Source: an uncultured Planctomyces sp. (GTDB taxonomy: Bacteria > Planctomycetota > Planctomycetia > Planctomycetales > Planctomycetaceae). From it: a stretch of DNA of 64,000 nucleotides. Below are positions 23,371 through 26,300 of this stretch, piece after piece. Every line of letters starts with the position of its first letter. Positions within the stretch are counted from its first letter, which is position 1. The position numbers and the translations under genes are program-made. The stretch is from positions 5,019-69,018 of the forward strand of contig CALDJX010000209.1 in assembly GCA_937899075.1 (NCBI GenBank), in the 5' to 3' direction. The notes under the pieces were generated by a model. It worked only from the letters and a program-made list of their open reading frames with translations. It did not search any database and had not been told where the DNA came from.

Positions 23371-26300
23371 TCACGAGATCGCTGGTCGGACAAAACGCTT
23401 GCGCGACGACGTCGATGATTGCGCATCATCCGCCCCCGACTCGCGATCTTCTTCGGCCGCGAAGTTCACGTGCTGACCAAGCAGCGACCGAGCAAGGCTG
23501 TCGCGCTGAGTCGCTCGTACCATGTCCAGAAAACTCACTTCACCGTTGACCAACGCGGCGACCGGCTTGCCATTCAGCAAAGCAATTCTGTTGTGAGCCG
23601 ACGCCGGAACTCGCGAATGCCGCGTAATAATTCCGACAAGGTTCAGCGGGTCCGCCGCAGAAATAATCACCAGCTCGTCGGAAGGCGCCACGCTCAATGG
23701 AACTTCACTCGCAGCTGGTGAGCCGACGGCGCTAGCCGCGGGCATTACATCTGGTTCCTTTTGTCCGTTGCCGACTAATAAAAAACCTTCTCGAATTCCA
23801 GCGGTTTTTGTAATCGCTCTGTTGCCGGAATCCGGAGTCGTGTCGCGTAACTGCCGAAGTTTTTTGACGGTGTCACCCAGCGCAAACTGCTCGCCCGCCA
23901 CGCCGGTGATAAATCGTCCGCCTCGGATTTCTCCACGAGCTTCCAGTCGACGATAAACCTGCAGCAATTCCCACCATCGCGGTGTTCCCGCTTCACGTTC
24001 CAGCAGATCGCGAAACACGACGCCCCATCGCCGAAGCAATTGCCACGCCCACTGTTCGACGGGATTTTCCTCGACGACGGCCGCCTTTAAATCACTTTGC
24101 TGCGAAGCGTCAGCACCCTCAGACTCGCGCTGCCAGATCGCCCACCGCCCGGTGTGGCCGAACGAGTTTCGAGTTCTGGCCAATCCGGGCCGACGACTCA
24201 CTGACGGAGTAGCCTGCTTACTTTGCAACAGCGATCGCAGACCACCGAATCCGTCCGCCGCGATTCGCCCTCGCGAGACCAGCTCGCCCAACGCATCGTT
24301 CAGTTCACCAATCCCGATGTTCAACTGCCGCTTGAGATCCGAAGCAAAAACAGCTCCGCGGAGTTTCATCGTGGCGAGGATTTCGCCAGCAGCCGGGCTC
24401 AGCACTTCGTCATCTTCCAACGTGGCGTCACTTGTCAGCCATCCAAGGTCGCTGCGCAGAAACAGCGACACCGGCACGACGCGAGTCAGCAGGGCAGGGG
24501 AGTCCGCATCGCGTTTCGGCGGAAACAATCGCCCCCAGGCAATCTCACCCGACAGACAAAGTTCATCCAGCCACGCCGACCGATAACCTTCAACTCGAGC
24601 CGGCAGAACATCACGCTCCCAGCAGACAGCCGCCAGGTCATAGCCCTGCAGCAGAGAGACGGCTTCGAACAAACCGTTAACGCCCGCTCGCCAAGTCTGC
24701 TTCGTCAGGCCGTGATGATGCGTCAAAAATCGCAGAAAAACATCCGGCGAAACCGGCTGAATCTGCTGCCGCAATCCCTGCATCGTTAACCGATGGATCC
24801 GAGACAGCAGTCGACGATGACACCACTCCGGCGGCGATTCGGCATTTTTCTCAGACGATTGGGTGCCACTGCTGGCTTGCCCAGCAGTGAGTTGCTTCAT
24901 GACGTGGGCACTGCTGGGCAAGCCAGCAGTGGCACCCAATTCTCGAAATCGACCACGCAGAACGACACCTTCGCCCTCCAACGCTTCCAGCGCCGCGAAC
25001 GCCTGATTCGGTTTCGTACCGGTTCGTCGAGCGGCTTCTTCATGAGTCAACGGTCCCGATGTTTCCAGCAAACCTCGCATCGTCGCGACGCGGCCATCAA
25101 CGTCGTTCCATTCAAGCCGCACGCCGTCGGGCGCCTGAATCTCCGGATGAAGTTTCGCGTCGGGAAACATCGCGAGCACAGCCGGGATCCGTTCTGCCGC
25201 TGTCCAGACTGTAACTCCGCCCGTTGCTGTCGTACTGGTCGCTCGACGCTGCTGAACGAGTTCTTCCAGCCAGCCTCGCCAGTCATCCATTTCGTCATCC
25301 GGCACGACGATCCGAGTCAGCAGTACATCGTGCAGTTCATCAGCGTTTCGAACGACCGGCGTGGCTTCGCTCGTCACCTGCTCGATCGCCAGCGGATCAA
25401 GTCGCCCGAGATCCCTCACCGAATCGACAGTCAGCGACCGACGAGTCGAAACCGCTCGCGCACGGCGTTCCGGCAACTCGCCACCGTCCAGAAACGCGTA
25501 CGGATTCGAATTGAGCAACTCGTAAGAAAACGGCGACGGCTCGCGAGTGTCTCGAGCGACGAATTCAATTTCGCCGGCTTCGACCTGCCGCAGAACATCG
25601 ACCAGGCCGCCAATGTCCAGGGCCTCGCTCAGGCAATCGTCCATCGTCTGACGCAGCAGAATGTGCTCGGGCATTGCCAATTCGCCGACGACGTTTTCCT
25701 GGCAACCGGTCAGCAAAGGAAACACCGACGACAGCAGATCGTCCGCGCGAAACCGCTGCAGTGCCGGCGGGATGCGTTTGCCTTTGTCGCGACGAGGAAC
25801 CAGCAACGCTCGGTTCGCATTCCAACGCCAGCGGATCTGGAACATCGGGATGTAAAGAATCGCCTGTTCGAGCAACCGCTGAGCGTTCTCCGAAGTCAGC
25901 ATCGGAAACATCGACTCCAGCGGAAAGCTGTGTTGAGGCCCGAGCGAAAGAATGAACCCGTCGTCGTCGGCCGTCGCCTGAAGTTCAAAGTCGAACGAGA
26001 CGCAGAACCGCTTCCGCATCGACAGGCCCCACGCCTGAGTGACTCGCGAACCGAACGGAGCATGTACCACCATCTGCATCCCGCCGGACTCGTCGAAGAA
26101 CCGTTCGAAGATCACTCGCTTCTGCGTGGGCACCATCCCGACGGCGGCAATCTGAGCGGCCAGATAATTCACAATCTGTCTCGCTGCGTAGTCGGAACAG
26201 TCTGTCTCTTTGACTAACCACTTGACGATGTCAGCCGTCGAGTTGCGAAACTCGGTCTGCGTGGCCGGAATTTCGTCGTATGAATCTTCACCTGTCTGAG

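What the first reader, a model, noticed from the sequence alone, without database searches (positions are those of the whole stretch)
24861..24937. Perfect 29-bp inverted repeat carried in frame inside the lhr helicase gene
Seen in sequence:
- The two arms are exact reverse complements, separated by 19 nt.
- Together they are translated as GATAGLPSSAHVMKQLTAGQASSGTQ.
- This stretch lies between the ...VVLRGRF and EWCHRRLLSRIHRLT segments.
- The arm sequence style (GTGCCACTG..GGC / GCC..CAGTGGCAC) recurs in the intergenic palindrome at 51553-51631.

Inference:
- A REP/MITE-like palindromic element has landed in, or been tolerated in, a coding region without breaking the frame.
- This adds a peptide loop to the protein and a strong hairpin to the mRNA.
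- As I recall Lhr proteins, the GRF...EWC junction is normally short.
Basis: partly seen in the sequence, partly recalled or inferred. Interest (0 to 1): 0.6.

Follow-up and report, generated by a model that had tools for sequence, protein, structure and literature searches.

The report
REP palindrome pair translated inside Lhr
A small hairpin-forming repeat (a REP doublet with about 100 copies in this planctomycete genome) sits in frame in a floppy surface loop of the DNA-repair helicase Lhr; this kind of event is already known, but here different repeat families occupy the same loop in sister species.

Summary
The palindrome is perfect over 32 nt per arm (24858-24889 / 24909-24940) with a 19-nt spacer, and lies in frame in an intact 1697-aa lhr (23371-28464, minus strand).

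It is a REP doublet (REPIN-type) of a family with about 101 copies in this 8-Mb genome: 91 of type A and 10 of type B, ours being type B. In relatives, RAYT (REP-associated tyrosine transposase) genes are bracketed by the same arms. No such RAYT is found in this 91%-complete assembly.

The insert fills the GRF...EWC junction. That junction is 39 aa here, 7-14 aa in distant orthologues and about 4 aa in M. smegmatis Lhr, where it is a disordered surface loop. AlphaFold puts it at a winged-helix wing tip with pLDDT below 50.

Congeners carry other REP families at the same loop, and the types do not follow the gene tree. This lhr also carries two further in-frame REP inserts. Family members also interrupt an IleRS and two Ser/Thr kinases.

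The phenomenon is already described (Di Nocera 2013; Rickettsia RPEs), and this scan has met it repeatedly on other DNA. Verdict: a new member of a known kind. The turnover of repeat families at one loop is the only modestly novel point.

The parts
24858..24940 (.). Type-B REP doublet (REPIN-like): two inverted REP units plus a 19-nt spacer. The family core GTGCC...GGCAC is 24863-24935. It encodes Lhr residues 1175-1203 on the minus strand.
24858..24889 (+). Left arm, ATTGGGTGCCACTGCTGGCTTGCCCAGCAGTG. It contains its own 9-bp mini-hairpin, CACTGCTGG/CCAGCAGTG.
   Evidence: sequence
24890..24908 (.). 19-nt spacer (hairpin loop). It is unrelated to the spacers of other type-B copies and to the G001 orthologous-site copy (4/19 identical).
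24909..24940 (-). Right arm, the exact reverse complement of the left arm.
24829..24945 (-). Coding region of the hypervariable GRF..EWC linker, Lhr residues 1174-1212. This is the wing-tip loop of a winged-helix module of the Lhr C-terminal domain. The last ~21 nt (AATGCCGAATCGCCGCCGGAG) are shared with G002/G005 and so are ancestral.
23371..28464 (-). lhr, 1697 aa, intact ORF with all Lhr Pfam domains.
27706..27810 (.). Second in-frame REP doublet in lhr (residues 219-253), of the GTAG-tagged family GTAGGCTGGAACAAGCTCCGCGCAGTTCCGGC (145 units in the genome). It is present at the same site in G001, G007, G004 and G002, and absent in G006.
26295..26535 (.). Third in-frame repeat block in lhr (residues ~644-724). 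Outer doublet arms TGAGCCGAACGCGCTAGCGTCGGGC (26295-26322 / 26508-26535; 8 genomic loci including this one, normally with a 10-40 nt spacer) enclose 185 nt.
26426..26495 (.). Palindromic repeat module nested inside the third block. It matches about 8 other genomic loci.
51553..51631 (.). Intergenic type-A family member (GTGTGCCACTGGCTTTGCCAGTGC ... GCACTGGCAGAGCCAGTGGCACAC).

Best explanation
The palindrome is a REP doublet (REPIN-type non-autonomous element). It belongs to a family whose units are the recognition hairpins of a RAYT (Y1/HUH single-strand-DNA transposase). A copy landed in the lhr coding sequence, at the tip of the beta-hairpin 'wing' of a winged-helix module in the Lhr C-terminal domain. 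That loop is disordered and solvent-exposed and carries no length constraint. The copy survived because it keeps the frame, has no stop codon, and is read in the one arm frame that gives small flexible residues (GATAGLPSS...TAGQASSGT). It is most likely a tolerated passenger: it adds about 29 disordered residues to the protein and a hairpin of about -75 kcal/mol to the mRNA, which the ribosome must unwind.

Shown: family membership, copy number, in-frame position, absence from distant orthologues, the structural location, and the RAYT-arm association in relatives.
Inferred: RAYT-mediated insertion into this gene, neutrality for Lhr function, and that the gene is expressed.

History (inferred): the loop was already long in this bacterial family. 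A different REP family (type C) was probably there in the ancestor of the genus. Type B in this genome and in G001, and type D in G004/G006, came in later by separate insertions or replacements.
For: Family: there are 84 elements with exact 9-mer ends, modal length 74 bp, and 101 under relaxed criteria, 91 type A and 10 type B. Arms are conserved and spacers are variable but partly homologous, which is the REPIN layout described in PMC3337134 and PMC3116915. The flanks are inverted, not direct, so there is no target-site duplication.

RAYT link: a 211-aa Y1 ORF in G008 and a 208-aa one in G020 are bracketed by inverted exact type-B arms, and one in G001 is abutted by a type-A arm. These proteins score 77 and 82 bits on NCBIfam REP_Tyr_transpos, cut-off 80.

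Insertion: the linker is 39 aa here, 7-14 aa in other families and about 4 aa in 7LHL.

Structure: MsmLhr residues 1046-1052 are a disordered surface loop (PMC8053096). In the AF2 model the insert has pLDDT below 50 (fragment residues 157-186 = Lhr 1178-1207), between confident strands 147-150 and 192-195 that follow three helices.

Other genes: in-frame family members interrupt the Pfam domains of an IleRS and two Ser/Thr kinases. All six intragenic copies in this genome read the left arm in the same frame.

Turnover: the G007 and G004 linker palindromes belong to other multi-copy families, with 71 and 13 matches in their own genomes. Element types are incongruent with the Lhr tree, where G001[B]+G007[C] has 98/93 support. 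Between own and G001, four-fold sites are 59.6% identical, the spacers 4/19 (P=7e-4) and the arms 52/54 (P=5e-10).
Against: No RAYT flanked by type-A/B arms is found in this genome's assembly. The only NCBIfam-level RAYT (C46) is flanked by a different GTAG-REP, and a second RAYT-like gene on C616 is broken. However, the assembly is 90.7% complete in 745 contigs. The arms carry neither the GTAG nor the CGTC tag of the published REP super-families. The frame preference is not absolute: the type-A doublet inside G007's lhr reads its left arm as VPLALPV. Four-fold sites are not fully neutral, so the P values are approximate.
Confidence: 0.85

Rival explanations
1. History variant. The type-B doublet in this genome and in G001 is one orthologous, old insertion. 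Its arms have been kept nearly identical by selection on the hairpin, or by arm-to-arm or copy-to-copy gene conversion, while the spacer and the rest of the linker drifted to randomness.
For: The element type, reading frame and position are the same in both genomes. In G001 both arms carry the same private change (CTGCTGG to CTGCGGG), so the long hairpin stays perfect while each arm's mini-hairpin gains a mismatch; this looks like arm-to-arm homogenisation. The GTAG doublet at the N-terminal site is clearly orthologous across five congeners and keeps its pairing through compensated changes. The internal branches of the gene tree are short.
Against: On the Lhr tree G001 pairs with G007, which carries type C and shares its 5' flank with G002. 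The spacers are 4/19 identical, against 59.6% at four-fold sites. The 5' junctions differ: GAATTGG|GTGCC versus GACCAGAGTGAGT|GTGCC.
Confidence: 0.3
2. The hairpin is maintained in lhr for a function of its own. It might act as an mRNA stabiliser or processing barrier, as a translational pause that helps the two CTD sub-domains fold, or as a protein loop with a role in Lhr tetramer or DNA contacts.
For: The stem is perfect over 32 bp, and only 2 of 105 family members extend 5 nt or more beyond the core. Strong hairpins recur at this loop in at least seven species. REPs are known to act as RNA elements (PMC3733652).
Against: The peptide sequence at the loop is entirely different between sister species, and in other genera of the family it is a palindrome-free acidic linker. 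Decayed palindromes in G002, G005 and G006 show that the hairpin is not maintained. The same element sits mostly between genes and in unrelated proteins. The AF2 model shows no structure in the insert.
Confidence: 0.07
3. It is a classical MITE, a deletion derivative of an IS with terminal inverted repeats, moved by a DDE transposase rather than by a RAYT.
For: The intergenic type-B copies lie inside a longer 'carrier' inverted-repeat element of about 150 bp (AGGATnnGTCCCGAAACAACTTCCCGATT...) that has about 28 outer-arm matches and variable cargo.
Against: There is no target-site duplication around the lhr copy or other copies. The lhr, C33 and C40 copies lack the carrier flanks. Each arm is a stem-loop, as in REPs. 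RAYT genes in three relatives are bracketed by the arms.
Confidence: 0.05
4. It is an assembly artefact: a fold-back or chimeric join in a metagenome-assembled genome.
For: The genome is a fragmented assembly of 745 contigs, and perfect palindromes can arise from fold-back artefacts.
Against: The frame stays open through a 1697-aa ORF. An independently assembled congener (G001, contig CAXBME010000006.1) has the same element type in the same frame at the same site. Near-identical copies occur on about 10 other contigs.
Confidence: 0.02

Closest known systems
Intragenic REPs of the GTAG/CGTC super-families (Di Nocera, De Gregorio and Rocco 2013, BMC Genomics 14:522, PMC3733652)
   Same: Both involve REP singlets and head-to-head dimers lying entirely inside ORFs, with dimers encoding 20-30 aa. 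They are enriched in DNA-synthesis and repair genes (uvrA/B/D, recBCD, polA, dnaE2), RNA helicases and tRNA synthetases. Some genes are hit twice, and different REPs lie at about the same site in recB of two Xanthomonas species. Here the affected genes are an Lhr repair helicase with three inserts, an IleRS and two kinases, and different REPs occupy one loop across species.
   Different: The type-A/B arms carry no GTAG or CGTC tag (head G[T/G]GTGCCACTG). The host is a planctomycete MAG. At least three families, with probable repeated gains, occupy one loop within a single genus. Lhr is not among the genes named in the section of that paper I read.
REPIN-RAYT systems (Bertels and Rainey 2011, PMC3116915 and PMC3337134; also Nunvar 2010, cited from memory)
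   Same: Both have two inverted REP units separated by a less conserved spacer, tens to hundreds of dispersed copies, and a Y1/HUH transposase gene bracketed by the same REPs, here in relatives G008, G020 and G001.
   Different: The cognate RAYT was not found in this genome's assembly. The exact 27-nt arm is shared across genera and with a second family of the class. REPINs are described as extragenic, whereas this one is translated.
Rickettsia palindromic elements (RPE-1 and others; Ogata et al. 2000, as summarised in PMC10969869 and PMC3733652)
   Same: Both are palindromic repeats inserted in frame into many unrelated, functional genes, adding peptide segments compatible with the protein fold.
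   Different: RPEs are about 100-150 bp, are specific to Rickettsia and encode a conserved peptide. I did not test for sequence relationship, and none is expected. Here the element is a 73-83 bp REP doublet, and only about 6 of 101 copies are intragenic.

Membership tests
REP / REPIN (RAYT-associated) | The unit is a short imperfect palindrome able to form a stem-loop. | tested here: met
   Each arm contains CACTGCTGG-CTTGC-CCAGCAGTG (type B) or CACTGGC-TCT-GCCAGTG (type A).
REP / REPIN (RAYT-associated) | Many dispersed copies, mostly between genes. | tested here: met
   There are 101 elements on about 90 contigs. Only 16 lie in any frame open for at least 60 aa on both sides, and about 6 lie in credible genes.
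REP / REPIN (RAYT-associated) | Doublet of two units in inverted orientation, with a spacer less conserved than the units. | tested here: met
   Modal length is 74 bp, arms are near-identical, and spacers are variable with partial homology among subsets.
REP / REPIN (RAYT-associated) | A cognate RAYT gene flanked by the same REPs. | tested here: inconclusive
   Met in relatives: G008 (L054), G020 (L055) and G001 (L056), with RAYT model scores of 77 and 82 bits against a cut-off of 80. Not met in this genome's assembly, which is 90.7% complete.
REP / REPIN (RAYT-associated) | No target-site duplication, as expected for Y1/HUH single-strand transposition. | tested here: met
   Flanks are inverted (GG..CC, GT..AC, ATTGG..CCAAT), never direct repeats.
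REP / REPIN (RAYT-associated) | Actual mobilisation by the RAYT. | not testable with these tools
   This needs in vitro cleavage or strand-transfer assays, or mobilome sequencing.
GTAG / CGTC-tagged REP super-families (Di Nocera 2013) | A GTAG or CGTC tetranucleotide at one end of the stem-loop. | tested here: not met
   Type A/B heads read G(T/G)GTGCCACTG. By contrast, the second lhr insert at 27706-27810 is GTAG-tagged.
Classical MITE (DDE transposase derivative) | Terminal inverted repeats plus a direct target-site duplication. | tested here: not met
   No direct repeats flank the lhr copy or other copies. The longer 'carrier' element around some type-B copies was not analysed for duplications.
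Lhr helicase (host gene) | SF2 helicase core, WH1, domain 4, and a C-terminal domain of winged-helix modules. | tested here: met
   Pfam finds DEAD, Helicase_C, WH_Lhr, DEAD_assoc, WH3_Lhr and WH4_Lhr. The best PDB match is M. smegmatis Lhr 7LHL, E=1e-163.

The most novel reading that the evidence does not exclude
The wing-tip loop of this Lhr winged-helix module, and two other Lhr loops, act as recurrent landing pads. REP doublets of different families, each presumably with its own RAYT, replace or nest into one another inside a coding sequence. Insertion would be targeted to the tip of a pre-existing DNA hairpin rather than random. Once a gene acquires one REP, it would then keep attracting others ('REP turnover' within an ORF). 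This could also explain why helicase and repair genes are so often decorated.
Probability: 0.35. Interest if true: 0.55.

Novelty: new member of a known kind. Interest (0 to 1): 0.35.

Why it matters
It is a clean, well-controlled example of selfish palindromic DNA being absorbed into a protein. The empty state is visible (short junctions in distant orthologues, and a palindrome-free site in G006 for the N-terminal insert). The structural site is known: a disordered wing-tip loop. The probable transposase partner is identified in relatives.

For annotators, it explains why planctomycete Lhr proteins are 150-450 aa longer than the roughly 1500-aa norm, and why their extra segments have no homologues.

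For REP biology, the useful point is the within-genus series. The same loop carries types B, C or D, some intact and some decayed, and nested doublets occur at another loop. This could be used to test whether REP insertion is hairpin-targeted. The 21- and 27-nt arms are identical across genera, which extends the picture of long-lived, vertically inherited REPIN-RAYT systems to Planctomycetia.

Tried and rejected
1. I looked for a RAYT next to type-A/B arms in this genome. Six Y1_Tnp hits were found and none has arms within 1.5 kb. The in-window gene (~34613-34948) scores as IS200/IS605 TnpA (61 bits), not as a RAYT (20 bits). The true RAYT on C46 is flanked by a different GTAG-REP. A tblastn search with the relatives' RAYTs found only C46 (28-30% identity) and a broken copy on C616.

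2. Rfam at gathering thresholds over the whole window gave no hit.

3. I tested the lead from earlier scan notes that the doublet could be the remnant of an in-frame REP-RAYT-REP cassette. No Y1 domain lies in or near lhr in G008, and none of the roughly 40 orthologous junctions read had a cassette-sized insert with a transposase. Not supported here.

4. I expected every long linker to be palindrome-derived, and it is not. Genera such as g25 and g28 have 18-35-aa acidic linkers with weak folds. The loop is therefore permissive in general, and REP colonisation is concentrated in this genus plus G008 and G203.

5. The G002 linker palindrome is not multi-copy. I read it as a decayed type C.

6. 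The nasA in-frame hairpin (30813-30856) is not of this family; its arm occurs 3 times in the genome.

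Full report
OBSERVATION. Window 24858-24889 and 24909-24940 are exact reverse complements of 32 nt, separated by 19 nt. No shuffle of the window gave a match to the arm. As RNA the coding strand folds at -77.1 kcal/mol, z = -10.65. The repeat lies in a 1697-aa minus-strand ORF, 23371-28464. This ORF has the complete Lhr domain set in Pfam, and its best solved relative is M. smegmatis Lhr, 7LHL, E = 1e-163. 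Each arm is itself a small stem-loop (CACTGCTGG-CTTGC-CCAGCAGTG), so the element is a pair of inverted hairpin units.

WHAT IT IS. The window's genome is 7.98 Mb in 745 contigs, GC 56.7% and 90.7% complete. Its relatives are MAGs labelled uncultured Planctomycetaceae.
- It holds 84 elements with exact GTGCCACTG...CAGTGGCAC ends, of which 44 are exactly 74 bp. Under relaxed criteria there are 101.
- There are two subfamilies. Type A has about 91 copies with arm GTGCCACTGGC-TCT-GCCAGTG; the window's 51553-51631 is one. Type B has 10 copies with arm GTGCCACTGCTGGC-TTG-CCCAGCAGTG; the lhr copy is one.
- Arms are near-identical between copies. Spacers are variable but recognisably homologous within subsets.
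- Flanks are inverted, never direct, so there is no target-site duplication.
This is the REP-doublet (REPIN) layout of Bertels and Rainey (PMC3116915, PMC3337134). Rfam has nothing for it.

THE TRANSPOSASE PARTNER.
- In G008, a complete genome of another genus, a 211-aa Y1/HUH ORF (...PEHVHLL...YIHNNP...WKWSSAR) lies between two inverted exact type-B arms.
- In G020, from a different family of the class, a 208-aa homologue is bracketed in the same way.
- In G001, a congener, a homologue is abutted by a type-A arm.
- The G008 and G020 proteins score 77 and 82 bits on NCBIfam REP_Tyr_transpos, cut-off 80.
- In the window's own assembly I found no such gene. The only clear RAYT (C46, 196 bits) is flanked by a different, GTAG-tagged REP. 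A second RAYT-like gene (C616) is broken. The Y1 gene in the window (~34613-34948) is an IS200/IS605-type TnpA.
- The A arm occurs in 13 of 18 other genomes of the same family, with 166 units here, 116 in G007 and 62 in G008. The exact 27-nt B arm also occurs in a second family. Reversed-pattern controls gave zero.

THE INSERTION SITE.
- The segment between the conserved ...LRGRF and EWCHRRLL... is 39 aa here (residues 1174-1212). It is 34-48 aa in the six congeners, 23-49 aa in some other genera of the family, 7-14 aa in other families of the class, and 111 aa in G008.
- In M. smegmatis Lhr the alignment leaves about 4 residues (...RGEFA1051 / 1056GEQWC...). Residues 1046-1052 are one of only two disordered surface loops in the cryo-EM model of the C-terminal domain (PMC8053096).
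- An AlphaFold2 model of residues 1022-1346 was built on 19 orthologues (mean pLDDT 80.5). It shows three helices and then strand 147-150. A stretch with pLDDT below 50 follows at 157-186 (Lhr 1178-1207), and then strand 192-195. The insert therefore sits at the wing tip of a winged-helix module.
- The helicase motifs are intact in the translation.

OTHER SPECIES CARRY OTHER REPEATS AT THE SAME LOOP.
- G001 has a type-B doublet in the same frame, but with an unrelated spacer, a different 5' junction and a private change present in both arms.
- G007 has GGTGGGCACCGCCCACC...GGTGGGCAGTGCCCACC (type C). This family has 71 matches in G007, 34 in G001 and 33 in G004.
- G004 has CCCTCTCCCC-CCAAT-GGGGAGAGGG (type D), with 13 matches in G004 and 12 in G007.
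- G002 and G005 carry decayed type C, G006 carries decayed type D, and G008 carries a type-A-like unit plus a long palindrome.
- Nucleotide homology between congeners stops at GRFR(E/D) and resumes about 20 nt before EWCH. G007 shares its 5' flank with G002.
- A tree of the flanking Lhr sequence groups G001[B] with G007[C] at 98/93 support, apart from this genome[B].
- Between this genome and G001, four-fold degenerate sites are 59.6% identical. The spacers are 4/19 identical (P = 7e-4 if orthologous and neutral), and the arms are 52/54 identical (P = 5e-10).
- The simplest reading is that type C is ancestral and later separate gains or replacements brought in B and D. An orthologous B copy with homogenised arms is not excluded.
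- Other genera have palindrome-free acidic linkers of 18-35 aa, and no orthologue examined has a transposase cassette there. The loop is therefore permissive in general.

LHR HOLDS TWO MORE REP INSERTS.
- 27706-27810 (residues 219-253) is a doublet of the GTAG-tagged family GTAGGCTGGAACAAGCTCCGCGCAGTTCCGGC, which has 145 units in the genome. It is shared at the same site by G001, G007, G004 and G002, with partly compensated arm changes. G006 has a 30-aa palindrome-free segment there.
- 26295-26535 (residues ~644-724) is a doublet of yet another family, TGAGCCGAACGCGCTAGCGTCGGGC. Its spacer is normally 10-40 nt but is 185 nt here, and it contains a further multi-copy palindromic module at 26426-26495.
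- At that same site G007 has an intact in-frame type-A doublet and G001 a half-decayed one. G002 and G005 have only about 17-30 aa.
- Intergenic type-B copies similarly sit at the centre of a longer 'carrier' inverted repeat that holds other cargos in other copies.
- Nesting at hairpin tips is thus a recurrent pattern. This is the basis of the novel case, but it is inference only.

OTHER GENES. Family members lie in frame in several other ORFs.
- An isoleucyl-tRNA synthetase (C5:5143-5206).
- Two Ser/Thr kinases, where they split the Pfam kinase domain (C420:51538-51610 and C438:827-899).
- The N-terminal tail of a PBP1-type protein (C40:16463-16535). This may lie upstream of the true start codon.
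- A 765-aa membrane ORF without a Pfam hit (C744).
All six intragenic copies in this genome read the left arm in the one frame that gives small residues, CATGSAS or GATAGLPSS. The other two frames give VCHWLCQC and VPLALPV. The G007 copy is an exception, so the bias is only suggestive.

COMPARISON WITH WHAT IS KNOWN.
- Di Nocera et al. 2013 (PMC3733652) describe REPs entirely inside ORFs, with dimers encoding 20-30 aa. They report enrichment in DNA-repair genes, helicases and tRNA synthetases, genes hit twice, and different REPs at about the same place in recB of two Xanthomonas species.
- Rickettsia RPEs are the classic in-frame case.
- Earlier notes of this scan record the same kind of event on other DNA: PriA, DinG, UvrD and HsdR, and a planctomycete lipoyl synthase.
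- This finding is therefore a new member of a known kind. What differs is an untagged REP type, a planctomycete host, three REP-colonised loops in one gene, and turnover of at least three families at one loop within a genus.

LIMITS. The cognate RAYT is missing from this incomplete assembly. The independent-gain inference rests on one gene tree with short internal branches and on four-fold sites, which are only approximately neutral.

Noticed in passing
window 27706-27810: A second in-frame REP doublet in lhr (residues 219-253), from a GTAG-tagged family with 145 units in the genome. It is orthologous in four congeners, and G006 shows the palindrome-free state.
   Followed up: yes
window 26295-26535: A third in-frame repeat block in lhr. 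It is a doublet of the family TGAGCCGAACGCGCTAGCGTCGGGC whose spacer is expanded to 185 nt by a nested multi-copy palindromic module at 26426-26495. G007 and G001 carry a type-A doublet at the same loop.
   Followed up: yes
own genome, e.g. C91:3993, C383:6726, C565:4999, C194:10339, C306, C594: A 'carrier' inverted-repeat element (AGGATnnGTCCCGAAACAACTTCCCGATT ... AATCGGGAAGTTnTTTCGGGACnnATCCT) with about 28 outer-arm matches. Its centre holds at least four different palindromic cargos, including the type-B core, and one copy is nearly empty.
   Followed up: partly
window ~34613-34948 and 35105-35261: A 148-aa Y1 transposase gene that scores as IS200/IS605 TnpA (61 bits) rather than as a RAYT (20 bits). 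A 67-nt-arm inverted repeat (84% complementary) lies just downstream, and its sequence resembles one of the carrier cargos.
   Followed up: partly
own genome C46:26488-26853 (L005): A bona fide RAYT (NCBIfam 196 bits) flanked by doublets of a GTAG-tagged REP, GTAGGCTGGGTCnnGACCCAGC. This motif occurs about 85 times in the genome.
   Followed up: partly
own genome C5:5143-5206, C420:51538-51610, C438:827-899: Type-A doublets in frame inside an isoleucyl-tRNA synthetase and inside the kinase domains of two Ser/Thr kinases.
   Followed up: partly
window 30813-30856: A 15-bp perfect inverted repeat in frame in the nitrate reductase gene. It is not of the A/B family, and its arm occurs 3 times in the genome.
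   Followed up: partly
G020, G030, G018, G008: The exact 27-nt type-B arm is identical in genomes of different genera and in a second family of the class. This is unusually deep conservation for a REP unit.
   Followed up: partly
L086 (G203) and L020 (G008) Lhr linkers: Linkers of about 110 aa at the same junction. Their sequences look repeat-derived (e.g. TLTPSPSPGGLGEPEGG in G203; a type-A-like unit and a long palindrome in G008).
   Followed up: no
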